A DNA stretch of 63,617 nt, the filler included, from Stramenopiles sp. TOSAG23-6 (taxonomy: Eukaryota), in NCBI GenBank assembly GCA_900128565.1. It is 11 parts of 11 records of this genome, joined end to end, with 100 filler letters (N's around TTAATTAATTAA, not from the genome) between each part and the next. Parts side by side here need not be neighbours in the genome. Positions count along the whole stretch, not along the records: positions 34,813 to 40,508 come from LT636852.1; 10 more parts are not named here. One strand, written 5' to 3'. Shown here one piece after another: positions 8,811 through 57,043 of the stretch; within the stretch, counting starts at the first letter, position 1, and every line of letters begins with the position of its first letter. Made by a program: the position numbers and the translations under genes. The notes beneath the pieces were generated by a model, which had not been told where the DNA came from, ran no database searches, and saw only the letters and a program-made list of their open reading frames with translations.

Positions 8811-9041
8811 AATGTTGGGGTCAAAATTTTATAGTCAAAAAATATTTATAGGTANAAAATTAAAAAATTAAATTTTATTAGATTATGAAGAAATATTTAA
8901 CATTATAAAAAGTATGTAAGAAATTATTAATCAAAAAAAAATCAATCGTAAACATCGAAGAAATTCAATGTTGTTTACATTTTGAAAATTCGATTTCTTT
9001 TTTTTTTTTTCGTAGTAATTTCCGTACCTAAAAAAAACAAG

Positions 9042-11423: not shown

Positions 11424-11683
11424 GTATGTATGTTTTATTTTTTTTTTTACAAAAAAATCGATTTTTTTTTCGTACGGAATTTTGTACCTAACAATTTTTT
11501 TTAGATNNNNNNNNNNNNNNNNNNNNNNNNNNNNNNNNNNNNNNNNNNNNTTAATTAATTAANNNNNNNNNNNNNNNNNNNNNNNNNNNNNNNNNNNNNN
11601 NNNNNNAAAAAAAAACTAAAATTTGTTAGGTACAAAATTTCGTATGAAAAATAAATTCGAAATTGAAAAAAGATAAAAGATAC

Positions 11684-17220: not shown

Positions 17221-17410
17221 GTATGTTTTATTTTTTTTTCAATTTAGAATTTCTTTTCGTACGAAATTTTGTACCTAACGTTTTTTTTTTCAAATATTTT
17301 TCCAAAATANNNNNNNNNNNNNNNNNNNNNNNNNNNNNNNNNNNNNNNNNNNNTTAATTAATTAANNNNNNNNNNNNNNNNNNNNNNNNNNNNNNNNNNN
17401 NNNNNNNNNT

Positions 17411-19072: not shown

Positions 19073-21103
19073 ATGAATCAAGAACAACAAAATAACAGTG
19101 GTAAGAATGATTCGGAAATACAAGTGAAGCAAAAAAAGGTTAAAGAACTAAAGAAATTGTATCTGCAATGGGTTGACACCATGTCTTTGACTTTGTTTTT
19201 CATTGCCATATTCTTCATATGCGGGAATATAATGTCCCATCATAATCCTGACGGTCTTCCGGGCACTGGTGACGAATACCTTGGGAATATTGAATTGTTA
19301 AACAAAACAACAAATAATGCCATTCCAGAGTTAAATCAGAGAGGCCATGATTGCCTTTCCGTTTCACCTTTTCTTGGTAAACAAAATGGAACACTCGAAG
19401 GGGAGTGGGTATGGGTTGATGGGCTTGCGACTACGACAAGACTACTTGCTGGTGATACCCAACCCACTAAAGTAAATGTAACCGGTAAAATTGCAGTTGC
19501 AAATTTTGGGGCTTCTCTTGATCATAAACCTGAATTTGTGTGTTTTCATCATGATTTTTTTAACTAAATAATTGTTTGTACCAAAATTCGTACCTAACGA
19601 ATTTCGAATTCTAAAATTTGTTTTTCACAATACATGGTGGAGGATTTTTTTACTCACACCAAGAAATGATTCAACACTTACATTCCGAAGGGGCTATCGG
19701 CGGCTTAATCTTGGCAAATGATTTTACAATTGAGGGCATAGGCCAGGGCCAGGGTTTTCATACTCCATATGAGTATCTTGAAGTTGATCAACCTGATATC
19801 TTTTTGGTTTGGATTACGGACTTTTACTTATTTCCAGGTGCACCTACCCACAATGCGCCAATTCCAAAATACTTCTATGAAGAATTAGCCAAAAAGAGAG
19901 ACAAACTTTTTGTTGGTGAGAGTAAGATAAGAATAAGTATCTTTGAAGAAGATCAGAAAACAGGAATTGTCGCCAAAAATCCATTTTTATGGTGCCAAGC
20001 CCACATTCTTTTGCCTTTGATGGGCATGTGTGTAATGAAAGTAGGTTTTAATACATTGGACGAAATGAACTTAAAATCGAATGCGATAAATGCTCCACGG
20101 GTCTCAATTTGGCTTGCAATTTTCACCTGTGTACTTCATGTCATCAAATCGCCGATGCTTGGGGTGGGACTTTCGCACAGACACCTAGGAATTTGGGGTA
20201 GCGCTTATGGTTTTGGTTATAATTTCTTTAGTCCTTCCGGTGTAGCATTTTTCAATAATATCTTGGTCGGAATTTCTGTAATGGAACTAGTCAATGCTAC
20301 TAAGAGAATGAGAAAACAAGCTCAAATTTTTAAAAAGTACAGAACTACTCTAATAATATCATTTATATTGACAGTCCCTCCTCCTTTTGTCATAACTTTC
20401 ATTATGATACTTGGATTAATACCAATATATTATTTCGTAGTCTTTAGACTCTTTGAAGATACATTTGGAGGTTTTTTATCAGGTGTATATTTTGTTGTTC
20501 AATTTATGCGACTTCTTCAAGTTATGGGTGAAAAACAGAGGAAAATGAAATTAATGAGACGATCTCGAAATAAAAACAAAAAGAATGATAAACATTCTGC
20601 ACAAATGCTAAAGCTTCAGCATATGACGTATTGGCTTGGCATCAATGCATTTTTTCTACTTATTGCAACTATATTTAATTTAGGTACCTTCCTTCTATTT
20701 ACTGGTGATGGATATACTATGGAAACGTTCTCGCATGTTTTTTGGTATATAAGATATGTATTTCGAAAATCTATCGATGTAATCCTTGCATACTCAAAGA
20801 TTAGATTGTTTGATCAAAGTGGTTTTCATCGGCGTAAGACTATGTACGTTTTCATCATTCATTCCAAAATTTTACTTAAATTTATTTTTTTTCGTACCAA
20901 AAGTTTTTGTACCTAACGATTTTTTTAAACCAAAAAAAAAAAAAAATTCACAATAAATGGATAAAGTTGCCCAAACAATTTCAGGGAAAAGTCGACAGAT
21001 GTCTCGTATGCTCAGACTGTCACAACGTAAAACTGATGAACAAATAGTTAAAGAAACTAAATTATTGCTTCAGAAATCTCAAGCAAGTGAAGAAAAGGCA
21101 TAG
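19073..21103 (+). CDS. Multi-pass membrane protein with extracellular N-terminal region; introns 19538-19635 and 20844-20958 (both GT-AT)
   Basis: Three open exons join in phase (TTT|GTGTGT...TACAT|GGT; AT|GTACGT...CAATAAAT|G); about 7 hydrophobic segments. Confidence 0.75.
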
Positions 21104-23024: not shown

Positions 23025-23212
23025 ATGTATTTTAGAAAAATATTTCACACAACAAAAAAAATCGTTAGGTACAAAATTTCGTACGAAAAAAAAATCGAAT
23101 TTGAAAAAAAAANNNNNNNNNNNNNNNNNNNNNNNNNNNNNNNNNNNNNNNNNNNNTTAATTAATTAANNNNNNNNNNNNNNNNNNNNNNNNNNNNNNNN
23201 NNNNNNNNNNNN

Positions 23213-24640
23213 CAAATATAAAGATTCTAATTGCATAGACCAAAAAAAGAAACAAAATGACAAAAAAGATTTCAATATTTGATAGATTATAACTTTTTCT
23301 TTCTAAACCTTCAATTATATCCCCACCGTTACCAAGACTGTATTTTGGAAAGATATTTCAAAAAAAAAATCCAATTTTTTTTTGTTTTTTTTGTTTTTTT
23401 TGTTAGGTACAAAATTTACTATGAAAAAAAAAAACGAATTTGAATAAAAATTAAAACATACATGATTCGAAATAAAGATGTATTTTGGAAAAATATTGTA
23501 CATGTATACTATTTGATTTAATAATGAAAAGATATGTATATATAATTTTAAAATTAAAAAAAAAAAAAAAATCAATGAAAAAAAACATGTTACCATAGAC
23601 TAAACTATTTTGTTTAAAAAAAAAAAAAAAAAAAAAAAAATCACAATGAAAAAATACATGTGCTCCCATATACAAAACTACTTAGCTGAGGTGTATATTT
23701 CCCTATTATAGCGACATAACAAATAACAACAGGATATAAGACGAATAGAATGAATAGAACAACTTTTGTGAGTTGTTTCGACCCAATTGAAATACTTTGT
23801 AATAATTCACTTATTGAAGAATTTGGGAATAATTTTGTAATTATTAAACAAATCACGTAAAATAAATATAATGTAATGAGATTTTGTTCAATGAGCAAAA
23901 AACTCGAAATATCATCTTGTGCCGTTGTAAAGGCTTCATTTCCAGATGTTGAACCTGCAGGATCAATAACTGTACATATAATGGATAATATATTTCAAAT
24001 TTCAATTTTTTTTTTGTTAGTAAAAAAAAATCAAATTTCAATTTTTTTTTTTTTTTTTTNTTAGTAAAAAAAAATCAAATTTCAATTTTTTTTTTGTTAG
24101 TAAAAAAGTATTTAGTTTGCAATGACAATAGGTAGTAGAGAGGATTAGAAGTACAGAACATATTTGAAAAAAAATTAAATGTTTTTTTTTTTTCGAAAAA
24201 AGTGTTGTATGAAAACCCTAACATGTACAAACAAACAAAAACGTACAAAATTTGTTTTCAAAAGGACACCCATAAATGATCTTACTTAATGACTCTAAAC
24301 TAATATTATTTTTTATCGATTTTCGTACGGCATTTTGTTGCACGCTGAGGTATAAAAATAATACTATACAAATGACATTGACTATATTGATTACATTGTC
24401 TAGTGTTATCAATTGCACAAGTCTCAAACATCGAATTGAAAATGCTTTAGGGTTAGGGTTAGTAAAGACCTTTTTTTTATACCATAGATTTATACTTTGA
24501 TATAATTGAACACATGAAATAAAACCTGCAGATAGTACTATAAAGAGTTGTAAGAAACCATAGCTTGTTTGAGATTCGACATCCATTTATTGTTTGAAGA
24601 TATATTTTGTAAAAAAATATTAGGTACAAAATTTCGTAGT

Positions 24641-24675
<35 letters not shown>

Positions 24676-24789
24676 AAGATACATTGATGTAATTTCCATT
24701 CGTGAGATAACAGTAGCTAAGAGATGATCAAACTCAAAATAAAAATATTTTTGAAAAAGTCTACCACTGGATGGAGACACATATGCCAC
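23213..24789 (-). CDS. Polycystin-2/TRP-like cation channel fragment; exons 24789-24683, 24584-24247, 23975-23658, 23477-23462, 23337-23213
   Basis: The spliced product has successive transmembrane helices and pore-helix SSFVYGSTSLFRIILG (compare PKD2 FRIILG); all four junctions are in phase (three AT, one AG). Confidence 0.7.
24585..24682 (-). mobile_element. Introner-family intron, GT-AT
   Basis: TCA AT|GTATCT...CAATAAAT|G GAT; an in-frame TAA just upstream of the AT rules out earlier acceptors. Confidence 0.75.
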
Positions 24790-24929
24790 ATGTCTTTTGG
24801 AAAAATATTTCACAAAAAAAATTTTGAAAATTCGTTAGGTACAAAATTTCGTACGAAAACCAAAAAAAAACCAAAAAAAAAAAAATCGATTTTTTTTTAA
24901 GGCCAAAAAAAAAAAAAAAAAAAACATAC

Positions 24930-25276: not shown

Positions 25277-28200
25277 CATTATTGGTCTGAAAATTTGTAT
25301 GATTTCGTGTGTTTTGTAGTATTGGTTGTGAACATTTTTTTTCGTGTTGAGTTGTAGTACTAGGGTTGGGGTTAGGGTTAGGGTTTGTTTCTTTGTTTTG
25401 TTTATCTACAGAAATAATTTTTGGTTGGATATGTAAAGGTAATGAACCTGGTGATGCTGTTAATTTAAAACCCGGTAACAACCCACCTACTTGGTCTTGC
25501 CAACCTCCTCCACTTGTCAATAATTGTTCTAATTGAAGAACAGCCTACATTTTTTTAAAATATTTCAAAAAAAAAATTAATATTTTTTTTGTTAGGTACA
25601 AAATTGACTACGAAAAAAAAAATTTAAAAAAAAAGTAAATTCAAAAAAAAAAAATTTTTAAAAATTTAAAAAATTACGAATGATAAATAAAACTATTACA
25701 CGTGTGACATACATGAAGCAAACTATTCATATCATACTTAATATCACAAACCTGTCCAATAGCTTGTAAGACACAACCTGCTAAAATAGAACTTGTACCA
25801 AGACCACTACCAACAGGTAATTTAGACCAACACGAAATCTCCAAACCACATCCAATTTTTTCCATTAATTGTGTTGCCAAAATATTTTGATTTTCATTTT
25901 CATTTTCAGTTTGATTAAAATTATGTTTTTTTTCATTTTTGTTTATTACTATTGGAGCATTGGTTTCACTAGAAGTAAGGTTTTCACTAGGGTTAGGGTT
26001 TATATTAATCAAACCACAGCTTATTACTGCTGCTTTAAGTAGTGCTGCTGGGGCTTGAGGTGTACAATAATCATATAACTGATTTATATGTGATATATTG
26101 ACTGTTCCTTTATGAGTATGGAATATAAGAACAGGTTTGTTCAAACGACGAATAGCTGCTCCACTATACTATTAAAAAATATATATAAATAAGATGTATT
26201 GATTTATTACAATGAATTTTCAAAAAAAAAAAAAAAAAAAAAAAAATTCAAATATTTTCAGAAAAAAAAAACAATTTTTAAAACAATTTTTTAAATTTTG
26301 TTTAAATTTTGTTTTGTATGTGTACTACACATACATTGGTCGAATAAACAGGTTTGTGTTTTTTTGTTGGATAAAATGTTCATTATCCCATTTACGCATA
26401 GTAATTGCAACGTTACATGTATTATGAAAAAGTATTTCTTCAAAAAAAAAAATCATATTTTTTTGTTAGGTACAAAATTTACTACGAAAAAAAAAATTAG
26501 AAAAAAAAAATTCAATTTTTAAAAACATACATACTAATCCACCATATTCAAATGTAATTGGAGGTGTATCTGTCCAACCTCCTGCTAAATCTATACGTGC
26601 ACCTGATTTCACAATGATCCAATGTTTGGATTGTTTGGATTGATCAAATTTGGATGGATCAAATATTTTTTTTCCACTTTTTTCGTGTTTTTTTATTTTT
26701 TCAATTTTTTCAATTTTTTCAATTTTTTCAATTTTTTCAATTTTTTCAATTTTTTCGTGTTTTTCTTTAAATTTGTTTGTTATAAAAACATCACAAGTTT
26801 TTACTGCCTGTTGAATTAACATTTGAGCAGCACCTTCATAATGCCTTGATGCACGAATGTTGTGTATAAAAAAATGTAAAAAATGTGTTTTTGTTAGGTA
26901 TAAAAATTTGTATGCAAAAAATGTAAAAATGTAAAAAAAATGTAAATTTTTTTTTTCTACAATTTAAAATGTAAAAAAAAAATTTAAAAAAATTAAAAAA
27001 AAAAAAAAAAACATACATTAATGANTTCGCATTATTCATCCATGAAACACGAATTCTAGACATTTTCTGAACAGATTGACGTCTCATTTGTTGTCCCTGG
27101 CATAAACCTGTGAAAGCTTCAGCCCATTGTGTATTTCGTGCATATAGTGTGTTATAATATTTCAATATAAAAAAACTAAAAAAAATTGAAATATTTAAAA
27201 AAAAAAAAAAAAATTGCAGTGATTCAAAAAATGATATATACTGGGCCTGATCGTAAGCCACCGCAATGATCGCATGTATATACTAGATATATTTACATTT
27301 TCTATTTGTTAGGTACAAGATTTTATTGTAAAAAAAAATCCAAATGTAAAATTAAAATTAAAAATTGAATGAAATTAAAAAAGTTGAAAAAAAAAAAAAA
27401 ACATGAAATTATACAAATTATACAAATAATAAAAATAGTACATAATCATGATACAAAACATACCATAACGACGTGATACATATCCAAATCGAGCAATTGC
27501 AGATAATAAATCAGCAATTTGGGCAAATGCTCTCGCAGAAATATCAACATCCTCATGACACGAAATCTCGTCCAAAATTGGAAAAATACGAGAAAATGTG
27601 TTGTATTGAGCTGCATGTTTATATATATCGGATAATTCAATATGTTTACGATGTAGTAAAACATGTTTCATCTTTGCTATACCAATTGTAGTATAAATTT
27701 GTGTACGGTGTTTGAATATTTTTTTTAAATTTGCATTTTCAAGAATTTCGTATAATGAAGTTTTTTCACAAGATTGCCACGTGTCAAAAGATTTTTGTAT
27801 TTCATCATGACTTAATTTTTGTACTGGACGAGAAAAGTCTAAAAGCCATTGAATTGGTTCAATAGAAATATCTTGATTTTCATGAAATATTGGAAAAAGT
27901 AATGCATGAAGAAGATTTTGTTGATTTTGTTTCTTTTTTAACCCTAACCCTAGTGGCCAAATGTCATTCATGGAACAAAACTGTCCACAATACTCAAAAA
28001 ATGTTGACCATAATTTTCCCATAAATTTTCCATTGTTTTCCATTGAAATTAACCAAGAATCATTTATACCAGTACAAACCAATACTTTACAGTCATTATC
28101 AATTGGTATTTCTTGTATACATGTTTTCGAAGGAATTTCAAATTGAATAGGATGATGTAAAGATAATCCAGAAATGATGCAATGTTGTCCAATTGTTAAA

Positions 28201-29066: not shown

Positions 29067-31186
29067 ACCGGAAGCAAATTGAGTTGTTGCATCAACATCT
29101 TTCACGGTGACAGATGTACTGCCTTTGGTAAAAGATCCATCTACTAAAACTCCAGTATTTGTTTTCGTAACACTAACATTCACTTCATCAATGGAATCGA
29201 GTAACTCTAGTGTTGTTTTTACTGTAACGGGTGTTGCATCAAAGGATATATTGGATGTAGTTTGTGAATAGTTACTACCTGTGAATGATATCGTAAATGT
29301 TCCACCCGTAGCATCACAAGTTAATGTTTGCTCTTCATTTTTCTGCCCAATGGTTATTGGATCATCCCCAGATGGACAAGTCTGAAGTTCACATTTATAA
29401 CCATAAAAATCAGAGAATTCACCTTTAAAAGGGCCATGCCACTGTCGCGTTTTGCAACTACAACCTCGTATCATATCAGCATCCCATGAATTTTGACTAT
29501 CTCCATAAGAAACACTATTTAAATTGGCTAAAGAGCGCATACTCAAACATTCACCTGAAGCAGCGGATGCATCTTTGTCAGTAACACCAGCACCAGTACA
29601 TATATGTAAATTATTGTCAGAGAAACATCGAAGTAATTCACATGCATTTCCTTCAAAAGGACCATCACATATACATTTCCCAGTTGCTCTATCACACTCT
29701 CCACGATTAGAACATTCCCATTCTCCATTTGCAGAAAATGTATGTGCTTGGTCAGACGAGGACGGTTCAGCAAACCACGGTTTACCTGTTGGACATTTTT
29801 TATGTTGACAAAACACACCTGAATAACCACCATCACAGACACATGAATATCCTGTAGTAAAATCACAGAATCCATGTCCCCAGCAGGGTAATGTGGGTCG
29901 CATGGAGAAAAGAAAAATATTTTACATTCGAAATTTCGTTAGGTACGAAATGTAGTACAAAAAAAATAAATTTGAAATTCAATTTTGAAAACGTACATCC
30001 TTTGATCATACGGAACTGGGCAATTGTCAGTTGATGCAATTTGACTCTTGTTATAATAACCACAATCACCAACAGTTCCTTCACCACCGGCACCATCCGA
30101 TGATGCAAAACCTGTAAAACATACGCACCCCCCACTGGTACAATATCCACGTATTGTGAAAAATATTTCAAAAAAAATTCGTTAGGTACGAAATTGCGTA
30201 TGAAAACCAAAAAAAAAAATTGAATTAGAAATTCATATAAAACATACACGACCACTACACATTATCCGCTCTCTAGTCCCTGTTGTATCTGGAGTTGTAT
30301 TGATTGTTGCAGAGCCTGTTAGTACTTCAGTATATAGAGGAGGATGAGTTCCAGGATTATGAGTAAATGTTATTTTTGATATAGCACCACCCGATGCGCA
30401 TATAGCGCTACCTCCTGATGTTATACTAACAGTTACTTCTGGAATATTTGCTAAATTTTCCAAGGCTGCTTTTAAATCAGACGCTGTAGCATCACCCGCT
30501 ATTCCTGAAGTTTTTTTACCTCGAAAATTAAGCGTGAAACTTGCACTTGAAGGAACTGCTGAAGTACATTCAATCTGCTGAATCTCGTTTACCTGAGACA
30601 TAGTGAACGGATCATCTCCGAAGGGACAATCTATTTGCAATGAACAGTCGTAGCCTTCTCGACCCTCATCACAAACGCAGCCATAGATCATATCAGCATC
30701 CCAGGGCGTTGAATAGTTGATCCCCAATAAATTCAAATGATTTCCATCAAATTCAGCACCAGCTTCACGCATAGAACGACACTTACCATATCCATTACAG
30801 ACTTTACCGTCCTCGTTGCGTGGACAAGAAAGGCGTTGACACGCTGAACCTTCGAAACCATTTTCACACTTGCACGTTCCAGTTGTTCTATCACAAGTAC
30901 CCATATTACTACACTCTACCCCACTTTGATGAGCGACGTTGGTTTGACTAGCAGAATCTGCCCAGCTTTTACCTGTTGGACAAGCACGTAGAGAACAATC
31001 GCTTCCATGCCAACCGTGTTCACATTCGCATGTTCTGTTCGTGGAACAGTATCCGTGACCACTGCACTTTGTAACGATGCAGTGTGCATAGGCTTTTGGA
31101 AGGGCAGTAGAAAATAAAGAAACTAGAAATATAAAGTCGATGATGCATGCAACAAACACACTTGATTTATGTGTGGATGGCGTCAT
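29067..31186 (-). CDS. Secreted EGF-repeat protein, 3'-truncated; introns 30149-30247 and 29902-29996
   Basis: Signal peptide; CSGHGYC, ECSNMGTCDRTTGTCKC, WDADMIYGCVCD and CPFGDDP modules occur twice. Confidence 0.9.
29902..29996 (-). mobile_element. Introner-family intron, GT-AT
   Basis: AGG AT|GTACGT...CTCCAT|G CGA keeps frame. Confidence 0.82.
30149..30247 (-). mobile_element. Introner-family intron, GT-GT (or GT-AC in the shifted register)
   Basis: CGT|GTATGT...CACAATACGT|GGA TAT TGT restores the EGF motif CSGRGYC. Confidence 0.85.
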
Positions 31187-31665: not shown

Positions 31666-33347
31666 TTACTCTTGTTTTTCAATTTGTTCTATTAATATAT
31701 CATGTCTTAATGATGAATATAACAGATTCCAAACAAGAAGTAGTATAAAAACAATATAAAATGAAGCAGGCAAAATGGCTCTGATATATTCCACATACGA
31801 CTGAACTTCTATTTCTTTTTCTGCAGCCTCATGCTCTAGTTCCTTTACAAGCTCTTCTATTTCTGATGCAAGTAAATCGTCTGAATTTTGTATTTGTTTT
31901 ATCTCATCCTTGTGCTGATTTAAAAGGAAATGAACTCGTGTCACAAGAAAAATAATCGTGAGTGAAGTTAAAAAGCATAAAATCAAAATCCAATGCATCC
32001 ACAATAATGAAGTAACTGGAGGCATTGTACCTGTATTCATACCACCAACAAAAGTCATTGTGGTAAGAAATGCAAATGATGCTGTAGCAATCTGTGCACT
32101 AAAGTGATCATGATGTGATATAAATAGTGAACCTAAAGCCATGGATAAAATAAACCAAAGAGGAACCAACGTATTGCTCACTGGACCCCAGTATTGACGT
32201 GTTACTACAATTGCACCGATCACAAAGCCATCATCTTTCCCTCCATTGAACATGGATGGTTCATTCGTATTGCGTACCGCATATTTACCAGGTGACCATG
32301 CTGTATTTTTTCTTGGTTTTCGTGTTCCTGGTGGATTGTATCCTTTGAGTGAAAGCTCATCTGGTCCATATCTAAATGAGGATAATTTTACTTGAACAAG
32401 TTGTTCATCAAATGGATACCCCCATAAATCAAAATTAACAATAACCTTGACATTCATCCTTTGAACCAACTTGAGATGCCCCTTTTCATGAAAAAGACTT
32501 TCTGTATGAATCTCGGATGGATGAGCTTTGTTACGTGCTTCGATTCCAGGAGTCCATGTACAGTGAAACATTATTTCAAAAATTTGTTTTTTTTGTTAGG
32601 TACATAATTTACTATGAAAAAATAAATTCGGAATTAAAATGATGAAAACGTACATGCAGGCCAACCCTCTTCCGTCATATGAATAAAACCTCTATACTCA
32701 ACATACTCTAAACGCGGATCAAACCATTCTGATTTAATAAGAATATCTAAATCTGCTTGTTGTATTGCCTGATTAATTCCCTGAAATTGCACGAAATCTA
32801 GTCCAACATTAATTACATCTATTTTGCCACTTTTTTTGCTTGGACGATCTTCTGGGTTATAGTGGAGAGGAAAATACATGCCTTCTTCACGAGAAAATGC
32901 CTCGGGAACCATTCCATCAGTCAAGATCTCAGTACCATTTTGATCAGCATTTTTTTGTATAGAAGACTGTTTTTTTTCAGCGGCAACTGCCAAAATATCA
33001 TCAAAATTATATGTTGGTTTTTGTGTTTTGTTTTGAACGTTTCCCTGATTGGTATTCATCACTGTTGCATTCGGTGAAGCAAATCGAAAGTTACCTTTGT
33101 TATTTTCATGTTTTCCTGTATCATGTTGTGACTTTTGTTTGTGCCCAGAATGCTCTGGACGATGTATCCCCGTAGGATTTGTAATCAAGCGCCGTTTATG
33201 TGGTTGTTTCACAAGCAAACTCTCTTCTTCTTCTTTGACCTCTAGAAAGCTCCGTAATTGTTTGGGTTCATCCGCTACAGTAGCTGACGCTGTATAATGT
33301 AAAGAGTATTGTAATAGAAGAATGAATGCGACTTTTGTGTTCAACAT
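31666..33347 (-). CDS. Pentameric ligand-gated ion channel subunit lacking the Cys-loop cysteines; intron 32556-32653
   Basis: Signal peptide, YNPEDRP, EWFDPRL, WTPGI, FDLWGYPFDEQ and four transmembrane helices. Confidence 0.85.
32556..32653 (-). mobile_element. Introner-family intron, GT-AT
   Basis: GCA T|GTACGT...CTGTACAT|GG ACT CCT restores the conserved WxP. Confidence 0.87.
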
Positions 33348-34669: not shown

Positions 34670-34865
34670 ATGTATTGTGAAAAAATATTTTTTTTTTTTA
34701 AATTTTTTTTTTNNNNNNNNNNNNNNNNNNNNNNNNNNNNNNNNNNNNNNNNNNNNTTAATTAATTAANNNNNNNNNNNNNNNNNNNNNNNNNNNNNNNN
34801 NNNNNNNNNNNNTACGAAATTTTGTACCTAACGATTTTTTTTTGAAATATTTTTCCAAAATACAT

Positions 34866-35454
34866 CGCCGGTTTCTCTTCACAAAACTTTCATATATTCT
34901 AATGGAATTTCGTCAATGACACAAATTTCTACACGATATGGCGTATCTTCAAAACATTTGCTTGTCGCCACTCATGATGGTAAGATTGCAATGATAAATA
35001 GGGATATTTTAAATCCAAGAAGACCTGAAAAAAAACCAACCAAAAATGAGGAAAAAGAGCGACTGATGCAATATCATCCTATGTTACCATTCAATTATCA
35101 GGAAGTGATAAGCCATCGCTTATTCTTGCCTCGTGTTTCGGGTGTAATTGCTACGGAAACATTTTTGGAATCGACTTCACTTGTAGCCGGGATGTACATT
35201 TTCATTATTTTTTTTTCATACGAAATTTTCATACGAAATTTTGTACCTAATAACAAAATTCTTGTAATATTTTTTCACAATACATAGGACTTGATATTTT
35301 TTGTACTAGAATGCAGCCTTCTGGTGCATTTGACCAATTGCCAAAATCTTTTAACAAGCCGATGCTAGCTCTTCTTGTTTTTGGTTTGTCTTTTGGCACA
35401 ATATGGGCAAATCAAGCTCTCAGTAAGAAAAAACTGTTTGACGCGTGGAAGTAA
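34866..35454 (+). CDS. EMC1: ER membrane complex subunit 1, C-terminal part; intron 35194-35285
   Basis: T.YGVSSKHLL, LNPRRP, LESTSLVAGI|GLDIF, PSGAFDQL...FNK and terminal WK*. Confidence 0.93.
35194..35285 (+). mobile_element. Introner-family intron, GT-AT
   Basis: GGG AT|GTACAT...CACAATACAT|A GGA; the AG 2 nt downstream is out of frame. Confidence 0.9.
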
Positions 35455-38657: not shown

Positions 38658-40508
38658 ATGGCGAAAAAGAAGGGAGGGAAGGGAAAGGGAAAGGGAAAGA
38701 AGAAGAAGAAGAAGAAGAATAGTTCTGATAAAAATGATGTTGATTCAAAAGAAAAAGGCGATGGTGAAGAATGGAAAACCAAGGGGTTTGTACGTTTTGT
38801 TCCCGAGGAAGAAGACAAACCGAAACCAAAACCTTCTAAACCAATCAGTGAAATGAAGACACACGAACGCATACTCCATCGAAAGACTTATCTTCCTTTG
38901 CCTCGGTTCTCAATTAAATCTAGAGAAACCGCCGCAGTGACAATCAGATGGACTGAGGTTTCTCAGCATAATACTGACAAGATGGGTCAGATAAAGAGTT
39001 TAAAACGTTTAAGAAATTTAGGACTCAGTGAACGATCTGACTTGCAAGACCAACATTATGATGATGCGGCAACAGAGGTAAGAAAGAAAAGTAAGCAAAT
39101 GCACATAGGGATATCCTCTGCTTTGAGCAATGGTTCAAATAATAGGAAAATTCCCCATAGAGAAGATGGATTATTTTTATCTCCTCGGGACTCATATGTA
39201 CTTTTTAATTATGAATTTTTTTTTTTTTTTTTTGGTAGAAAATTTTGTACCTAACGATTTTTTTTTTTTGAATATTTTTTAACAATATATCTTCATAAAT
39301 GTCGTTTAGCACGGGTCGCACCCCGACCTTCGATATTTACAAAAACGTCACCAATTGCGCATAGATCGGTTCTTATGGATAAAAGTTTAAAGTACCAAAA
39401 TGCATTGCTTGGAGTGGATCAAATATCTGCACTATGTGGTGCAATTGAGGAAGTACAAGATATGCAAGTGAGAACTTTATCCTTAGCAAACAACCGCATG
39501 TACGTTTTTATTATTTTTCAAATCCGAATTTGTTTTCGTACGACATTTTGTACCTAACGATTTTTTTTGAAATATTTTTCCAAAATACATCGATCACGTT
39601 GGCTGTCGTCTTCTAAGTACTTCTCTATATCAGCATCATGCATTAATGAATATAGATCTATCTGGGAATCCAATAGGCACGAAAGGCATGGGTTATCTTG
39701 TTCATGTTTTAGAAAGTAATCATCTACATCAGATCAATTTTGCATCATGTATGTTTTCATTGTGAATTTTAAATCTATACTTTTTGTACCAAATTCCCAT
39801 ACCTAACGATTTTCAATGTAACATTTTTCTACAATACATGCTCACTCACTGACGATGCTATTGTAACGCTTTGTCAGGTACTTTTTCGAACTCACTCGGT
39901 GAGACAATTAAATTTGAGTGGTAATACATTCGGGGTACACGCCTGTTCCGCTGTTGCAAAACTAGTTGCCGCATCGACCATTTCGAGTCAATTGAGGTTA
40001 ATGGAATTAAAAATATCCGATAATAAAATTCCTCCGGTGGGTCTTTGTAAGATATTTTTAGCTCTTTCATTAAATGAAACACTACAAGTGTTGGATATTA
40101 GTTTAAATTCTCTCAGTGGTCGTGAATCACGTCACTATAAACATTTACTTCCTGTACTTGATTTGGATGCATACAAGAAGTTTCCAGTGGAAAGAGGATT
40201 TGGTCCAGTTTGGGATAAAATATCATCAGAAGATTCTGAAGTGTCTGAAGGAAAGAAATTAAAGAAAAACGATGGAAAGGATAAAGATAAAAAGAGTTCA
40301 ACAGCAGGAAAAGGGGGGAAAGGCAAAAATGGTGATGATAGTATCAAAGCTTTACGAGCAAAAAATCTAGAAAATAAGCGAATTCATGGACCATGTATGT
40401 TTAATTTTTTTTTTAATTTCAATTTTTTTTCGTACGAAATTTTGTACCTAACATTTTTTTTTTTTGGAATATTTCTCCAAAATACATAGGCGTGGAGGAT
40501 ACAATTTC
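38658..40508 (+). CDS. Leucine-rich-repeat (RI-like) protein, 3'-truncated; family introns 39198-39290, 39500-39590, 39749-39839 (GT-AT) and about 40395-40489
   Basis: Splicing restores LSLANNRI|DHVG and INFASC|SLTD; further LRRs DLSGNPIGTKG and LNLSGNTFG. Confidence 0.85.
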
Positions 40509-42757: not shown

Positions 42758-45083
42758 TTATTCATTCCTACCATTTTTACAAACTGCTACAGGTCCATCA
42801 CCAACATCTACAAGTTCAAAAGTTGGAAATTTCATCATTGTATCATTATGAATATTCCGATGTGCATTCTTATCTTCTTTAATATTTAAGTGGAACCGGG
42901 TATCATTTGCACATTCCTCACCTGAANTAANTTTTTTTTTTTTTTTGTTTAATTGAAAGGTCGTTCAAAGAATTCTCTACTTTTAATTTAAACCCATTTA
43001 TAATATTTTCTATAACTTTAGTACGATAATGTAAAATTACGACTAATGACATCATTGATACAGCAAGTAAAATTTTCCACGTCATTGAAAGTTTATATAA
43101 AAAAACGTCCAAGTTTTCTCCGTGCATATGTTTTATATACAGAATTTTCATACTAAAAAAATGTGGTAAAAAAATCAATTTTTGAAATCAATAATAAAAC
43201 GCAAAGAAAAATCATCAGGCACAATTTGCTTTTGAAAAAACTAAAAAAAATGATGAAAACGTACTGAACCATAGTCGACACCATTAATGATGAAAACAAC
43301 AATTAGTCTAAAGGATGTCGTTACAATGAAGATAAAATCCCATATTGTAAATGACGAAGACGCTGCGGTCAAAATCTGTGCGATTTCAAATATAACAAGA
43401 ATGTAAAATGAATTCAATATGTACTATAAGAGGATAAGAGGATAGAGCAATTGTGTGTAACTAACAAATTTAACATTTGTTTGGTACAAAATTTGGTACA
43501 ACTTACATTTCGTTTTGACATTTGAAAATAGATCAGAGTTGAGTAAAAACACGCAATAGTTTCGAATCCATCGAGAGAAAATGTAGTGTGAAAAAATACC
43601 TAATTTGAAATTTTGTTAAAAAAGAATTGTAGTGTGAAAAAATACCTAATTTGAAATTTTGTTAAAAAAAAAAATAGAAAAAATTGAAATTAGTTTGAAA
43701 TCATCAAAAAGTACATGATTCTCGGCTGAAGGCTTCGTCCCATAAATGATTATATAGTATATATTGGTATAAAAATGTGGATGTGACAGATTTGTCCTTT
43801 GAAATTATTTTGCGGTGCATGAACTGTGACAAAAATAGTTTTTTTAATTCGTTAGGTATGAAATTTTCCAAGTAAAACAAATAAATGTAAAATTTTCACA
43901 ATAAAAAGATTAAAACTTACATACCAGAACCTAATTGTTTCCAAGAACAATTAATAAATTGATGATTCCAAAGTCTTCCAGGTGCTTCACTCGCGGCATC
44001 ATCCATTGTACAGAAATTGATTTTGATGTTACAAAATTTATTTTCGGCAAGAAATGTGAAAAAATATTTTTTTTTGGACAAAAAGTTTTTTATGTACAAA
44101 ATTTTCATTATTAAAAAAAAAAATAGATGAAATATTCCATTTCGAAAACATACAATCACAGCAAAAATGGAAAAATAAAATGTTATTCCAAATACTTTTA
44201 AAACTGACTTTGTAATACTTTCAGAAATATCAAGAAGATCGATAATTTCCATTAGGTTATGGTTAGGATTAGGGTTAGGGTTAGTTCTTCCTGTTTTTCC
44301 AGGGAATTTAACTTTTCCATCGATTGATTTGTTTGTATATTTAACATTTTCTGCGCCTTTTGTAGAGTTTGTATATGCCCGAGAGTGAGCATATATGTAT
44401 TGTGAAAACATATTTTAAATTCGAAATTGTTCAAAAGGTTAACAATTTTGTATGAAAACAAAAATAAAATTTGAAATTCATGATATTTTGGAAAAATATT
44501 TTTTTTAGTGAAAAAATCATTAGGTACAAAATTTCGTACGAAAAAAAAATCGAAATTGAAAAAAGACGACGTACAGACACTGTGACTGTGTATGTAACAT
44601 AAAGTAATTAAGAAAGTATATACCAAACATAATGAGAATATGTAATACCCATAGAACTTCATCTTTTTGAGTAAATCCGTAATAATGTCCAGATTTAATA
44701 TCAACTTTTCCGGATTTTTCATACGCAGACTTATATTTTGTGTGCAATATAATTCGGTATGTCGCTAAAGGAATAAAAATAGTAAATATAGAAATTACCA
44801 GTGACATCACTTTTATCTTGTGAACTTCTAACCGAGTTTTAACAGTAACATAATCTTGATTATTTGACCAAAGGGTTGCAAAGAAAATAGATGCTGTACA
44901 GAGAATATGCAGAGTCATACCAGCTGCAATGGCTTTTTGATATCCCAAAATAAAAAAGACAATGTTGCATAACACGAGGAGAAAACTCTGTAGCAAAATG
45001 ACGCGTTGAGTAAAATTTATCAAAAGTGTTTGTCGTAAGACTATTCTATCGGATGATCCTTTGTTAAATACGACGTGTTTCAT
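42758..45083 (-). CDS. Multi-exon membrane protein of unknown function; exon structure only partly resolved
   Basis: Hydrophobic open frames separated by family introns (44395-44574 is in phase); the other junctions are uncertain. Confidence 0.5.
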
Positions 45084-46211: not shown

Positions 46212-46396
46212 GTACGTTTTCATTATGAATTTCAAATTTGTTTTTTTCGTACGAAATTTTGTACCTAACAAATTTCGAATTTAATTTTTTTTNNNNNNNN
46301 NNNNNNNNNNNNNNNNNNNNNNNNNNNNNNNNNNNNTTAATTAATTAANNNNNNNNNNNNNNNNNNNNNNNNNNNNNNNNNNNNNNNNNNNNTGTT

Positions 46397-51312: not shown

Positions 51313-52070
51313 TTATGAATGTGAAACTGGGGGTGGAGGCCCCTTCATTTCTGATTCATCGACTGGTTTAATACCATGAAAACGATCATAATTAATATGA
51401 CATGCACCTTTAATTCTTTGAACACAACTGACAAAATCATGATCCCAAAAAACTTCACATTGACCTTTTTTATCGAATTTATCTTCAACGTATTGTGAAA
51501 AATTATTTAAAATTTTTTTTTGAAAATTCGTTAGGTACAAAATTTCGTATNNNNNNNNNNNNNNNNNNNNNNNNNNNNNNNNNNNNNNNNNNNNNNNNNN
51601 NNNNNNNNNNNNNNNNNNNNNNNNNNNNNNNNNNNNNNNNNNNNNNNNNNNNNNNNNNNNNNNNNNNNNNNNNNNNNNNNNNNNNNNNNNNNNNNNNNNN
51701 NNNNNNNNNNNNNNNNNNNNNNNNNNNNNNNNNNNNNNNNNNNNNNNNNNNNNAAAAAGGTCAATGTGAAGTTTTTTGGGATCATGATTTTCATCTTTTT
51801 TTTTAGAATGTACATTTAAATGTACATTTAAATGATTTATTGAAGAATGTTTCACTTGTTGATATTCGACACCACCTTGTTCACCTTCTTTTTCAATATG
51901 TCTTTGTAAACATTCTTTAGAAGGAAAAGGTTCTCCATTTGTAGTACTAATGGTTTGAACATCATGTACTGTGAAATATATTGTGTTTTTTTGTTAGGTA
52001 CAAAATTTTTCAAAAAAAATAATTCGATTTTTTTGTAAAAAAAAAAATAAAACATACATGCCCACTAATT
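51313..52070 (-). CDS. Hypothetical protein, 3' fragment; family intron 51964-52057 and a second one ending CAATACGT| near 51489
   Basis: Open frames flank the family introns; interrupted by an N gap. Confidence 0.45.
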
Positions 52071-52222
52071 NNNNNNNNNNNNNNNNNNNNNNNNNNNNNN
52101 NNNNNNNNNNNNNNTTAATTAATTAANNNNNNNNNNNNNNNNNNNNNNNNNNNNNNNNNNNNNNNNNNNNGTACAAAATTTCGTACGAAAAAAAATCGAA
52201 TTTGAAAAAAAATAAAACATAC

Positions 52223-55698: not shown

Positions 55699-57043
55699 AT
55701 GAGTGCAGCTCCTCCATTACCACCGGGTCTTACACAAACTATTGAACTACAAACTTCTGTGGAATCATCTGCAAGTAATTCTAAAGTTGCGTCTCTTGAA
55801 ATTCTCGTGAAGCAACTAAAGTCAGAGAATGCTAGCTTGAAACTGAAATTAAAAGCTTCACAACGAGAGATAAGTAGACTGTCTAAAACATTGTCAAGAA
55901 AAACACCCCTAAAGAAATCTTCTTCAAAAATAAAGACTCCCGTGAATGGGAAAAATTCAACCCCCGTTGGACAGAGGCTTCCTGGTTCAAAATCCAAAAA
56001 GCTCAGCCATATAAAGTCTCGTTTGTTGCAGCCAACTGCATCAACAAAAACACGAGCAATGAAAGATGCAGAGAAAAAAAAACGTGAAGACGCTGAGGCA
56101 TTGACATATGTACGTTTTCATATTTAATTTTAAATTTATTTTTTTGTACTACATCTAAAATTTTCGTGTACCTAACAAATCTCATACTGTAAAACATATT
56201 GTTTCCAACGCATGACTTCCAGCCTAAAATTTTCACAAAGAAAAAAGGTCAAAGTGTAACCAAACGTAACCCAGAGACTTTTAAACGACTCTTTGAGCAA
56301 GCCGCGATTCGAGATGAACGTCAGAAGCTAGCTCAGGCGGAAAATGAAGCAAAAAAATTGGATGGCTGTACTTTTGCGCCTACTACTTCGAGTGTGACTA
56401 AAACAAATTCTGCTGTTTTCTCTCGTTTGTATGAAAACAAAACTAAGTCCGTGCCTTTAAGTATCTCCAAAGATTTGTCTGAGTGTACATTTCAACCAAA
56501 TTTGAATAAAACTAATTCAAAACCTAACCGAGAGAATCCAGAGAAAGTTTCTTCACGTTTATATGAGGATGCAAGCGAAAAACGAAAAAGATTGACGGAA
56601 ATGAAGGCTGCAGATGATGCTAAAAAGGAGGAAGTTTTACGAGAATTGCATGTATGTTTTATTTTTTTTTTAACAAAAAAATCGATTTTTTTTCGTACGA
56701 AATTGTGTACCTAACAAATTTAGTTTTTTTTTTGAAATATTTTTCCAAAATACATACTTCCTCAGTCCATTATGGAAAAAAAATAGATACTCTAAAGCTA
56801 AGCAACAGACTTCACGAAGATGCTGCGAAAAAAACTGAGGAAAGAGAAAAAGTTACAATATCAAATATACCAAAACCTCTCAAAAATAGAACAAAAGAGG
56901 ATGTTGATGAGGTTGTGAAGAGACTCCACAATACACCCTTAATTGGGAAGCAATTACAAGAAGAAGCTGAATGGATCGGAAACACAAATGAGAAAGACAT
57001 TACAAATAGAGCTGATTCTCCTGAATTTGAGGCATTTGAGTAA
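55699..57043 (+). CDS. Coiled-coil protein with CTFxP / RLYE repeats; family introns 56110-56213 and 56652-56755
   Basis: Three exons join in phase; repeats GCTFAP, ECTFQP and SRLYE. The first intron also has an in-frame AG 9 nt downstream. Confidence 0.78.

What the first reader, a model, noticed from the sequence alone, without database searches (positions are those of the whole stretch)
39500..39590. MITE-like architecture: GTA...TAC terminal inverted repeats with a 2-nt AT duplication
Well-preserved copies read AT-[GTAYRTTTT...AAAATAC]-AT, and ATGTATTTT is the reverse complement of AAAATACAT. AT precedes the donor in 19 of 28 AT-ending and 5 of 7 AG-ending introns. Inference: a non-autonomous DNA transposon inserts at AT. 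Its left end supplies the GT donor and the downstream duplicate serves as acceptor, so splicing restores the coding sequence exactly. This parallels known introners that co-opt a splice site from the target duplication, but with AT instead of AG. The paired ends might also help bring the splice sites together.
Basis: partly seen in the sequence, partly recalled or inferred. Interest (0 to 1): 0.85.

Follow-up and report, generated by a model that had tools for sequence, protein, structure and literature searches.

The report
Intron-making repeat spliced GT to AT
A marine protist's genes are peppered with copies of one ~95-base repeat that must be cut out as an intron ending in AT instead of the near-universal AG, a rare kind of splicing so far documented at scale only in a few tunicates.

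Summary
Window 39500-39590 is a 91-nt copy of a high-copy repeat reading xAT|GTAYGTTTT..TACGAAATTTTGTACCTAAC..CAAAATACAT|. I catalogued 36 introns. 29 end in AT, 6 in AG and 1 in GT. AT precedes the donor in 21/29 AT-ending and 5/6 AG-ending introns, against 10% of exonic GT sites.

Removing exactly GT..AT gives gapless alignments to homologues at six AT-ending junctions, including the target intron. The database gene model for one of these genes is mis-spliced.

The host is a protist, not a tunicate. Three relatives' genomic contigs have ordinary GT-AG introns elsewhere and none at two of these sites.

The transposon reading is only partly supported:
- The repeat is clearly amplified: thousands-fold depth in metagenomes, and sequence blocks break inside it.
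- The inverted termini are only about 5-7 nt.
- The AT (really YAT|G) direct repeat shows no co-variation beyond the family consensus.
- No empty site, transposase or spliced RNA read was found.

Best reading: an introner family that carries its GT donor and branch site and uses a non-canonical AT acceptor. It is a new variant of a known kind, closest to Fritillaria non-canonical introns and to Micromonas-type introners.

The parts
39500..39590 (+). The finding: 91-nt family copy, intron CAT|GT..CAT|C, phase 2, in an LRR gene
   Evidence: Sequence. The spliced model aligns without a gap to orthologue P0221 across the junction (NNR-I-DH). A GT..AC cut gives a stop at residue 259.
39198..39290 (+). 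Family intron TAT|GT..TAT|C, phase 0, same gene
   Evidence: Gapless against P0221 (DSY|LH). Register test.
39749..39839 (+). Family intron CAT|GT..CAT|G, phase 1, same gene
   Evidence: Gapless against P0221 (FAS-C-SLT).
40395..40487 (+). Family copy CAT|GT..CAT|A near a block end; unresolved
   Evidence: A GT..AT cut makes a T|AG stop at the junction, and an AG lies 2 nt further on. An RNA-library contig of run X6 (40313-40450) runs into it (table 8).
575..735 (+). Family intron CAT|GT..AAT|G in succinyl-CoA ligase alpha
   Evidence: The flanking exons match PDB 9swj_C residues 210-258 and 259-295, so they abut (MGH|AGA).
294..433 (+). Family-like intron GAA|GT..CAG|G (AG-ending), same gene
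   Evidence: The flanking exons match PDB 9swj_C residues 144-209 and 210-258.
9202..9313 (-). Diverged family intron TAT|GT..CAT|G in cytochrome-b5 reductase
   Evidence: Gapless alignment to P0002-4, P0007, P0033 and P0039. The database model P0001 is mis-spliced here.
9349..9523 (-). Family intron ACA|GT..TAT|G (no AT upstream), same gene
   Evidence: Gapless alignment (GET|GF).
32556..32653 (-). Family intron CAT|GT..CAT|G splitting a Trp codon (T|GG) in a Cys-loop receptor domain
   Evidence: Pfam Neur_chan_LBD coordinates of the two exons run on from one to the other. Register test. PDB searches found nothing.
30149..30247 (-). Family intron CGT|GT..CGT|G (ends in GT; the border triplets co-vary)
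   Evidence: The register was chosen from the Cys spacing of the EGF-like exons, which is my reading. EGF Pfam hits in the flanking ORFs.
29902..29996 (-). Family intron GAT|GT..CAT|G
   Evidence: Phase 2 joins a 61-codon frame to a 293-codon frame.
1479..1576 (-). Family intron CCT|GT..CAT|G
   Evidence: Register test, (144 codons).
2461..2567 (-). Family intron AAT|GT..TAG|G; an AT end 9 nt further on is in the same register
3084..3249 (-). Family-like intron TGT|GT..TAT|A; a TAG 3 nt upstream is in the same register
5407..5506 (+). Family intron AAT|GT..TAG|A (AG-ending)
   Evidence: There is a weak Ank match only in the AG register (E 0.016).
11057..11154 (+). Family intron GAT|GT..CAT|T
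   Evidence: 111 codons.
15362..15448 (-). Family intron TTT|GT..CAT|A (no AT upstream, no G downstream: the GT..AT borders are unambiguous)
   Evidence: 192 codons.
17949..18045 (+). Family intron ATA|GT..TAT|G
18209..18308 (+). Family intron with a GC donor, TAT|GC..CAT|G
19538..19635 (+). Family intron TTT|GT..CAT|G
   Evidence: 202 codons.
20844..20958 (+). Family intron TAT|GT..AAT|G
23338..23461 (-). Family intron CAT|GT..CAG|T (AG variant of the usual ACAT end)
   Evidence: Consistent only with the 16-nt micro-exon upstream.
23478..23657 (-). Two family units in tandem, removed as 180 nt, CAT|GT..CAT|C
24585..24682 (-). Family intron AAT|GT..AAT|G
   Evidence: 121 codons.
24790..24929 (-). 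Family intron CAT|GT..CAT|G
25545..25712 (-). Family intron CAT|GT..TAG|G (AG-ending)
   Evidence: 215 codons.
26164..26334 (-). Intron without the core, AAT|GT..TAG|T (AG-ending)
26417..26530 (-). Family intron TAT|GT..CAT|G
   Evidence: 29 codons, just under the cut-off.
26857..27016 (-). Family-like intron AAT|GT..CAT|T, found late and not in the counts
   Evidence: The upstream frame is cut by a single N.
35194..35285 (+). Family intron GAT|GT..CAT|A
43161..43264 (-). Family-like intron TCA|GT..CAT|T
   Evidence: The nearby AG is out of register.
43581..43714 (-). Family-like intron CAT|GT..CAT|T with an internal duplication
43819..43920 (-). Family intron TAT|GT..CAT|G
44395..44574 (-). 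Composite of two family units, TCT|GT..CAT|A
   Evidence: joins a 175-codon frame to a 158-codon frame.
51964..52057 (-). Family intron CAT|GT..CAT|G between two N runs
   Evidence: Too little flank to test the frame.
56110..56213 (+). Family intron TAT|GT..CAT|G
   Evidence: joins a 146-codon frame to a 166-codon frame.
56652..56755 (+). Family intron CAT|GT..CAT|A
5588..5703 (+). 5' part of a copy (CAT|GT..) cut by a block end
11428..11506 (+). 5' part of a copy (TAT|GT..) cut by a block end
11607..11683 (-). 5' part of a copy (CAT|GT..) cut by a block end
17221..17309 (+). Copy (GAT|GT..) cut by a block end
23025..23112 (-). 3' part of a copy (..CAT|G) at a block end
34813..34865 (+). 3' part of a copy (..CAT|C) at a block end
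46212..46292 (+). 5' part of a copy (CTG|GT..) cut by a block end
51488..51550 (-). 3' part of a copy (..CGT|T) at an N run
52171..52222 (-). 5' part of a copy at a block end
8970..9047 (+). Diverged copy (AAT|GT..CAT|T) between two convergent genes. Its last 6 nt are the last codon and the stop of the minus-strand reductase gene.

Best explanation
The window samples a marine protist whose genes are invaded by one family of short (87-180 nt, median about 100), AT-rich, non-coding elements that behave as introners.

What each copy looks like:
- It sits in the sense orientation in a gene.
- It brings its own 5' splice site (GTAYGTTTT).
- It brings an extended branch site (TTTTGTACCTAAC) about 33-45 nt from its end.
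- It ends in A-Y-A-T.

How it works: the spliceosome removes the stretch from the G of GT to the final AT, and in a few copies to AG or GT. This restores the reading frame exactly. The host's splicing machinery must therefore accept U as the last intron base.

What is shown:
- A repeated and amplified family.
- Exact GT..AT excision required by protein homology.
- The same YAT|G at both borders.
- Absence of these introns at the same sites in relatives.

What is inferred:
- The elements spread as DNA, inserting at (Y)AT|G sites with duplication of AT (2-4 nt). The donor then comes from the element and the acceptor from the downstream duplicate.
- Removal is spliceosomal.
For: Family and copy number:
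- 34 core hits against 2.6 expected.
- The alignment of 25 copies shares non-signal blocks such as YRTACGAAATTTT and GAAATATTTTT.
- In a seawater DNA metagenome (X3), summed contig depth is 6,900-36,700 over the elements against about 7.5 over unique sequence. 1448 pieces are at least 99% alike.
- 14/24 sequence-block ends lie within 120 nt of a family motif, against 739/3000 random places.

Exact junctions:
- Succinyl-CoA ligase exons abut on PDB 9swj_C at 209|210 and 258|259.
- Cytochrome-b5 reductase is gapless against 6 homologues over two introns.
- The LRR gene is gapless against P0221 over three introns, including 39500-39590. The GT..AC alternative gives a stop.

Register test: with 3' ends set by similarity alone (23 pairs), shifts of 0, -3 and +3 join frames of at least 30 codons in 16, 17 and 16 pairs. 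Other shifts do so in 4-7.

Borders:
- AT lies upstream in 26/36, against 10.2% background.
- YAT lies upstream in 19/36, against 3.7%.
- G follows the intron in 21/36, against 20%.
- 8 of 29 AT-ending introns lack an upstream AT, which fixes the borders as GT..AT.

Lineage-specific: 0 of 3 intron-bearing genomic contigs of relatives (L002, L015, L016) has an intron at either reductase site. Their introns elsewhere are GT..AG.

DNA state: DNA contigs of X3 and X4 hold the elements in place, for example 39566-40319.
Against: - No spliced RNA read or contig was obtained for any of these introns. The one read-laying run showed only repeat-driven joints.
- One RNA-library contig (X6, 40313-40450) runs from exon into the copy at 40395.
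- At 40395-40487 the GT..AT rule makes a TAG at the junction.
- For the transposon/TSD step, border matches are not more frequent within introns than between random pairs. Observed against expected: k=2, 22 against 21.0; k=3, 12 against 8.5 (P 0.05); k=4, 2 against 1.9. Per-position ratios are 0.7-1.2.
- The inverted termini are about 5-7 nt.
- No empty-site allele appeared among the 15 joints that one search listed for X3/X4 over 34813-40508. A further 182 joints were not shown.
- None of the 36 ORF translations scanned matched a transposase family.
- Exact scans of metagenome contigs and viral contigs for a 20-mer of the element found nothing.
- The catalogue is hand-curated. Several 3' ends rest on frame length and family likeness only.
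Confidence: 0.62

Rival explanations
1. The same introner family and the same GT..AT splicing, but no target-site duplication. Copies spread by a route that adds exactly the intron, such as reverse splicing with reverse transcription or another 'direct insertion'. They enter sites that fit the organism's exon-junction preference, YAT|G. On this view the likeness of the two borders is a consensus, as AG|G is at both borders of ordinary introns.
For: - There is no co-variation between the two borders beyond the family consensus.
- All 23 whole and 8 cut copies that carry the core lie in the sense of the flanking reading frames.
- AG-ending copies still have AT upstream (5/6).
- The inverted termini are very short.
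- Introner families without TSD or TIR are on record (passages of PMC9860276).
Against: - No single splicing factor is known (recalled) that would impose the same AT on both the exon end and the intron end. A duplication explains this simply.
- The ends are palindromic (CATGTA..TACATG).
- One rare variant co-varies (CGT/CGT at 30149-30247), and the k=3 match count is borderline (P 0.05).
- Tandem units share a single AT (23478-23657).
- A copy lies between convergent genes (8970-9047).
Confidence: 0.22
2. The true cuts lie 2 nt to the left, so these are AT..AC introns (|ATGTAYG...ATAC|) and not GT..AT. The mRNA is the same wherever AT is repeated.
For: For the 21 AT-ending introns with AT upstream, the two readings give identical mRNA. 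AT-AC is a known terminal pair (introduction of PMC13326754).
Against: - 8 of 29 AT-ending introns have no AT upstream, so the shift is impossible there without changing frame or protein.
- GTAYGT is the best-conserved 5' block.
- There is no U12-type /ATATCCTT and no branch site close to the 3' end.
Confidence: 0.05
3. These are not mobile elements. They are old introns that look alike because this organism demands long, uniform splicing signals.
For: The best-conserved blocks are the 5' site, the branch site and the 3' end. Every intron found in the window looks like the family.
Against: - Copies share sequence outside any known signal.
- Metagenome contigs hold over a thousand pieces at least 99% alike.
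- Sequence blocks break at the copies.
- Subfamilies, tandem units and composite units exist.
- The sites are empty in relatives.
Confidence: 0.04
4. The elements are removed from DNA, like the TA-bounded internal eliminated sequences of ciliates (recalled), and not from RNA.
For: They are short, AT-rich, bounded by a dinucleotide direct repeat with short inverted ends, and they interrupt coding sequence.
Against: - DNA contigs from two seawater metagenomes carry the elements inside the genes, and no excised DNA form appeared among the joints that one search listed (182 more were not shown).
- The copies carry a textbook 5' splice site and branch site.
- The genes use the standard genetic code, unlike many ciliates.
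Confidence: 0.02

Closest known systems
Non-canonical introns of the larvacean tunicates Fritillaria borealis and F. pellucida (Henriet et al. 2019; Soo et al. 2026, PMC13326754)
   Same: - A YAY triplet often lies just upstream of the 5' site, and a YAY triplet forms the last three intron bases.
- 3' AT is the commonest end (44% in F. pellucida, 34% in F. borealis).
- A uridine-rich tract is kept.
- The introns are at species-specific positions and are attributed to MITE-like or introner transposons.
- They are removed by the major spliceosome.
(Section 21 and passages of PMC13326754; passages of PMC11282704.)
   Different: - The host here is a protist. The window's Snu114 fragment (33741-34697) is about 70% identical to plant, green-algal and unnamed marine sequences. 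The one identical database protein bears a protist-style label.
- The 5' end here is a strong GTAYGT, not the AG of the main F. borealis classes.
- Here one family accounts for nearly all introns seen.
- The 2019 paper is not held, and Supplementary Fig. S1 with the YAY rule could not be seen.
Introners of Micromonas pusilla (IE1) and Chrysochromulina sp.
   Same: - They are short, non-autonomous elements in thousands of copies.
- The element carries the 5' splice site and the 3' site is taken from the target duplication, so splicing restores the mRNA.
(Section 5 and the Fig. 2 legend of PMC11282704; Fig. 2 legend of PMC9860276.)
   Different: - There the co-opted site is the canonical AG, and the TSD is 3-4 bp and demonstrable.
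- Here the end is AT and the duplication is not separable from a consensus.
- Huff et al. 2016 is not held.
Introner elements of the parasitic dinoflagellate Amoebophrya (PMC7789003)
   Same: - They are non-canonical, repeated introns.
- They have direct repeats of 3-5 nt over the borders and inverted repeats at the ends.
- No transposase is inside.
- The host is a marine protist.
(Passages.)
   Different: - There the inverted repeats are 8-20 nt and form hairpins, the terminal dinucleotides are highly diverse, and there is no clear 5' consensus.
- Here the borders are uniform (GT..AT), the inverted ends are 5-7 nt, and the fold is weak.
Aureococcus anophagefferens introners (a stramenopile)
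   Same: An introner family with direct repeats and TIRs (passages of PMC7789003; PMC9860276). The host is a stramenopile, as the window's own host may be if my unverified reading of the database label is right.
   Different: - They have canonical splice sites.
- They carry both sites and add 12 nt to the transcript.
- Here nothing is added, and the acceptor is AT.

Membership tests
Introner / introner element | Many introns of near-identical sequence at unrelated loci in one genome | tested here: met
   34 core hits against 2.6 expected. 25-copy alignment. Thousands-fold depth and over 1000 pieces at least 99% alike in metagenome X3.
Introner / introner element | Copies interrupt coding sequence, and their removal restores the protein | tested here: met
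   Seven junctions are exact by homology, six AT-ending and one AG-ending. Register test: 16/23 in register against 4-7/23 out of register.
Introner / introner element | Removal from RNA by splicing, seen in transcripts | tested here: inconclusive
   One search listed 15 joints, none a clean spliced joint; a further 182 were not shown. One RNA-library contig runs into a copy. No transcript-derived identical proteins were found.
Introner / introner element | Positions specific to the lineage (recent gain) | tested here: met
   For two sites only: 0 of 3 intron-bearing relatives' contigs has an intron there. The relatives are distant (47-57% identity).
MITE (non-autonomous TIR DNA transposon) | Terminal inverted repeats of roughly 10 bp or more, specific to the family | tested here: not met
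   Only ATGTA/TACAT plus a T-run/A-run with a 1-nt offset. Part of it is the splice signals themselves (consensus).
MITE (non-autonomous TIR DNA transposon) | Target-site duplication of fixed length flanking each copy | tested here: inconclusive
   AT occurs at both borders in 22/36, but random pairing gives 21.0. For k=3 the figures are 12 against 8.5 (P 0.05). Per-position relative match is about 1.
MITE (non-autonomous TIR DNA transposon) | Small size and no coding capacity | tested here: met
   87-180 nt, GC 0.12-0.25.
MITE (non-autonomous TIR DNA transposon) | A longer autonomous element with the same termini and a transposase | not testable with these tools
   No whole genome is held. 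None of the 36 ORF translations in the window matches a transposase family.
MITE (non-autonomous TIR DNA transposon) | Insertion polymorphism (filled and empty alleles) | tested here: inconclusive
   No empty allele appeared among the 15 joints that one search listed for the two DNA metagenomes over 34813-40508. A further 182 joints were not shown.
Fritillaria-type non-canonical introns | A YAY triplet upstream of the 5' site and as the last three intron bases | tested here: met
   Upstream YAT in 19/36. The last three bases are CAT or TAT in 26/36.
Fritillaria-type non-canonical introns | The host is a fritillariid tunicate | tested here: not met
   Best relatives of conserved proteins are unnamed marine, plant and green-algal sequences. 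The identical database protein bears a protist-style label.
U12-type (minor) AT-AC introns | A 5' /ATATCCTT and a branch site about 10-15 nt from the 3' end (recalled definition) | tested here: not met
   The 5' block is (AT)GTAYGTTTT. CTAAC lies 30-49 nt from the end in 29 of 36 introns; in the other 7 the last such match lies 54-125 nt away or none was found.
Ciliate-type internal eliminated sequences | Precise excision from somatic DNA | tested here: not met
   DNA contigs of X3 and X4 keep the elements in the genes.

The most novel reading that the evidence does not exclude
A unicellular marine eukaryote has independently arrived at what was known only from Fritillaria. Nearly its whole intron complement descends from one introner family, and its major spliceosome routinely uses AU (YAU) as the 3' splice site alongside AG. 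If so, current gene models for this genome, and probably for its uncultured relatives, are systematically mis-spliced. Surveys that keep only canonical or RNA-verified introns would have missed the family.
Probability: 0.5. Interest if true: 0.85.

Novelty: new variant of a known kind. Interest (0 to 1): 0.72.

Why it matters
- **Splicing.** The GT/AG rule holds almost everywhere. A second, unrelated lineage with mass use of an AT acceptor would show that such a shift can follow an introner invasion repeatedly. It would also offer a small-genome protist in which to ask which splicing factor changed (U2AF, U1 or U6), as was done for Fritillaria.
- **Annotation.** The one database model checked (P0001) reads into the intron and replaces about 20 conserved residues. 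Protein sets from this and similar single-cell or metagenome assemblies may be widely corrupted.
- **Intron gain.** The family is a clear case where the donor and branch site come with the element and the acceptor sits at the repeated AT. This makes the question of splice sites borrowed from a duplication directly testable once sister genomes are compared.

Tried and rejected
1. **Fritillaria origin.** My first idea was that the window is a Fritillaria tunicate, because the YAY/3'AT pattern fits PMC13326754. I rejected it. The identical database protein has a protist-style label. The window's Snu114 fragment is closest to unnamed marine, plant and green-algal sequences.
2. **RNA proof of splicing.**
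   - The one read-laying run (runs X3, X4, X6, X8) listed 15 joints, all repeat-driven, with 182 more not shown.
   - RNA cover of the LRR gene was thin.
   - Protein searches for transcript-derived copies found only the mis-spliced model or nothing.
3. **More copies or a carrier.** Exact 20-mer scans of metagenome contigs and viral contigs found 0.
4. **Whole genome.** None is held, so no search for an autonomous element was possible.
5. **PDB check of the Cys-loop junction.** No hits. Only the Pfam coordinates bear on it.
6. **Automatic choice of phase by the longest open frame.** This misled me at 5407, 23461, 29996 and 30247. I corrected these using the micro-exon, ankyrin and EGF context. 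A candidate at 27463 was dropped.
7. **End-pairing in RNA.** Six folds gave z-scores from -2.14 to +0.09. A 3-4 bp terminal helix appeared in 4 of 6. This is not convincing.
8. **Rfam.** No match in the window, so no snRNA to inspect.
10. **Empty-site test with relatives.** L001, L002, L003, L015 and L016 are too diverged (47-57% identity, GC 0.5-0.63) to say whether a single AT stood at the insertion points.
11. **Papers not held.** Henriet 2019 and Huff 2016.
Full report
**What is at the coordinates.** Window 39500-39590 reads cgcAT|GTACGTTTTT...TCGTACGACATTTTGTACCTAACGATTTT...GAAATATTTTTCCAAAATACAT|cgat. It is one copy of a repeat.
- The 15-nt core GTACCTAACGATTTT occurs 34 times at up to 3 mismatches, against 2.63 expected from shuffles.
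- ATGTAYRTTTT occurs 18 times against 0.82 expected.
- An alignment of 25 copies (A1) gives the consensus xxxAT|GTATGTTTTCATTATTATTTT..TTTTTTTTTCnTACnAAATTTTGTACCTAACAAA..TTTTTTTnAAATATTTTTTCACAATACAT|G.
- The copies share blocks that are not known splice signals, such as YRTACGAAATTTT and GAAATATTTTT. The likeness is therefore common descent and not only shared constraint.

**The window itself.**
- It is a chain of blocks of about 5.7 kb, in order of falling length, joined by N44-TTAATTAATTAA-N44. Genes on different blocks are not neighbours.
- 14 of 24 block ends lie within 120 nt of a family motif, against 739 of 3000 random internal places (p 4e-4). This is what an assembler does at a high-copy repeat.
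- In an independent seawater DNA metagenome (X3), summed contig depth over the copies in 34813-40508 is 6,900-36,700 against about 7.5 over unique sequence. 1448 laid pieces are at least 99% alike.
- These depths sum all contigs and are not a copy number. They do show very many near-identical copies.

**Which organism.** I first took it for a Fritillaria tunicate, because the pattern matches what is published for that group. That is wrong.
- The window encodes succinyl-CoA ligase alpha, cytochrome-b5 reductase, CLP1, SART-1, a Snu114 C-terminus, ankyrin, kelch, WD40, EGF-rich proteins and a Cys-loop receptor domain.
- The one 100%-identical database protein (P0001) carries the source name 'GSMAST32...assembled CDS'. 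The next hits are unnamed marine sequences at 55-64% identity.
- The window's Snu114 fragment (33741-34697) is about 70% identical to plant, green-algal and unnamed marine proteins.
- I read the label as pointing to a MAST-3-type marine stramenopile. That is my reading of a name and is not a phylogeny.

**Are they introns, and where are the cuts.** Three genes give exact answers.
1. *Succinyl-CoA ligase alpha.* Exons 81-293, 434-574 and 736-876 match PDB chain 9swj_C at residues 144-209, 210-258 and 259-295. Intron 294-433 (GT..AG) and intron 575-735 (CAT|GT..AAT|G) are therefore cut exactly there. The second cut falls inside the MGH|AGA active-site loop.
2. *Cytochrome-b5 reductase.* Removing 9523..9349 and 9313..9202 (minus strand) gives a protein that aligns without a gap to six homologues (GET|GF and RRN-M-PEP). 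The database model P0001 carries about 20 unrelated residues and an insertion there. The first of these introns has ACA, not AT, upstream.
3. *The LRR gene of the finding.* Removing 39198-39290, 39500-39590 and 39749-39839 gives a model that aligns gaplessly to P0221 across all three joints. P0221 is a 2270-residue EukProt gene model. Ending the target intron at AC instead gives a stop at residue 259.

A fourth case is consistent on Pfam coordinates only. Intron 32653..32556 splits a Trp codon (T|GG) of the Cys-loop domain (PDB searches were empty).

**Register test.** This test does not use my curation. I set 3' ends purely by likeness to the two family end-motifs, which gave 23 donor-end pairs.
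- Excision with shift 0, -3 or +3 joins open frames of at least 30 codons in 16, 17 and 16 pairs. Other shifts do so in 4-7 pairs.
- Seven pairs fail at shift 0. Two are spurious long pairs, two sit at block ends, one scores 29 codons, one had a wrongly set end, and one is the AG variant next to a 16-nt micro-exon.

From the ORF-continuity scans I curated 36 introns.
- 29 end in AT, 6 in AG and 1 in GT (CGT). 30 carry the core.
- AT precedes the donor in 21/29 and 5/6.
- Overall this is 26/36, against 143/1408 exonic GT sites. YAT is 19/36 against 3.7%. The base after the intron is G in 21/36 against 20% G. The last three intron bases are CAT or TAT in 26/36.
- The last CT[AG]A[CT] match lies 30-49 nt from the 3' end in 29 of 36. 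In the other 7 it is further away or absent.
- The catalogue is hand-made. Two introns have two in-register ends. Automatic phase choice misled me four times before I corrected it.
- Because 8 AT-ending introns lack an upstream AT and 15 of 36 lack a G downstream, the only single rule that fits all copies is GT..AT.

**Is the AT a target-site duplication.** The borders look alike (YAT|G at both), and with the element ends they form a palindrome, CATGTA..TACATG.
- The likeness is a family-wide consensus. The two borders of one intron match no more often than borders of different introns. For k=2 the counts are 22 against 21.0. For k=3 they are 12 against 8.5 (P 0.05). For k=4 they are 2 against 1.9.
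- Per-position ratios are 0.7-1.2. This is the same kind of test as in PMC9860276.
- Hints for a true duplication: the rare CGT/CGT and TAT/TAT pairs, tandem units sharing one AT (23478-23657), and the lack of any known reason for splicing to want the same AT at an exon end and at an intron end.
- Against it: AG-ending copies keep AT upstream, and the inverted termini are only 5-7 nt.
- Missing: no empty allele among the joints that one search listed, no transposase (36 ORF translations), and no whole genome to search.

I therefore rate 'introner spliced GT..AT' as well supported. I rate 'DNA transposon with an AT duplication' as the likelier of two open mechanisms.

**Are the positions old.**
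- For the two reductase sites, three relatives' contigs that are plainly genomic (L002, L015, L016) are uninterrupted there. Each has GT..AG introns elsewhere.
- Two further contigs (L001, L003) are also uninterrupted.
- The relatives are distant (47-57% identity, GC 0.50-0.63). This speaks for lineage-specific gain but cannot show a single AT at the empty site.

**What is missing.**
- There is no direct RNA evidence. The one read-laying run showed only repeat-driven joints. One RNA-library contig (X6, 40313-40450) runs from exon into the copy at 40395, which could be pre-mRNA or DNA.
- At that copy the GT..AT rule makes a TAG at the joint, which I cannot resolve.
- RNA folds give only a weak 3-4 bp end helix.
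- Rfam found nothing in the window.

**Comparison with print.**
- *Fritillaria.* I saw the abstract, Introduction, section 21 and passages of PMC13326754, and passages of the review PMC11282704. The same YAY-flanked, 3'AT-rich, transposon-derived introns are described there, but in tunicates and mostly with AG at the 5' end.
- *Micromonas and Chrysochromulina introners.* These carry the donor and take a canonical AG from the duplication (section 5 of PMC11282704; passages of PMC9860276).
- *Amoebophrya introners.* These are non-canonical, with longer inverted repeats (passages of PMC7789003).
- *Searches.* Four full-text searches and term look-ups for 'intron' or 'splice' in three papers on MAST genomics (PMC5778133, PMC8163842, PMC12614181) turned up no account of GT-AT introners in such protists.
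- *Why surveys could miss it.* The 2025 introner survey says it discarded families with mainly non-canonical sites unless RNA data confirmed them (passage of PMC12130899). That would hide a family like this one.
- *Not seen.* Supplements were closed, and Henriet 2019 and Huff 2016 are not held. Details there may bear on novelty.

**Verdict.** This is a new variant of a known kind.

Noticed in passing
window 1-63617 (N runs listed): The window is a chain of blocks of about 5.7 kb in order of falling length, joined by N44-TTAATTAATTAA-N44 spacers. Gene order across spacers is therefore not real.
   Followed up: partly
window 9040-10270 (-) and protein P0001: The database's own gene model for cytochrome-b5 reductase reads into the introns. 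It carries about 20 unrelated residues where homologues are conserved. A GT..AT model repairs it.
   Followed up: yes
window 8970-9047 (+) and 9042-9047: A diverged family copy lies between two convergent genes. Its last six bases, read on the other strand, are the final Met codon and the TAA stop of the reductase. Homologues end in Phe. The copy may have reshaped the gene's end.
   Followed up: partly
window 23462-23477 (-): A 16-nt micro-exon lies between two family introns. The frames are consistent only if the first intron ends in ACAT and the second in ACAG.
   Followed up: partly
window 40395-40487 (+): Cutting this copy GT..AT creates a TAG at the joint, yet the orthologue P0221 runs on for about 1,700 more residues. 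An AG lies 2 nt downstream, and the block ends 21 nt later.
   Followed up: partly
window 38168 (inside the SART-1 family gene, 35586-38399 -): Contigs of two seawater DNA metagenomes carry a 24-nt in-frame insertion here relative to the window, in a repetitive Arg/Ser-rich part (table 4).
   Followed up: no
window 18209-18308 (+): One family copy has GC in place of GT at the donor (GCACAT). It still sits in register between open frames.
   Followed up: no
window 575-735 (+): This copy is lengthened by a tandem run of GAAA(T)n units inside the intron.
   Followed up: no
window 57949-63615 (-), 46394-49570 (+): Very long open frames of 1,889 and 1,058 residues have no Pfam match at E <= 0.001.
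   Followed up: no
window 33741-34697 (-), 35586-38399 (-): Two spliceosome proteins lie in the window: the Snu114 C-terminus and a SART-1 family protein. The parts seen are uninterrupted by introns and well conserved.
   Followed up: no
loci L002, L015, L016: Relatives' reductase genes from metagenome contigs have ordinary GT..AG, GC-rich introns at other positions.
   Followed up: partly
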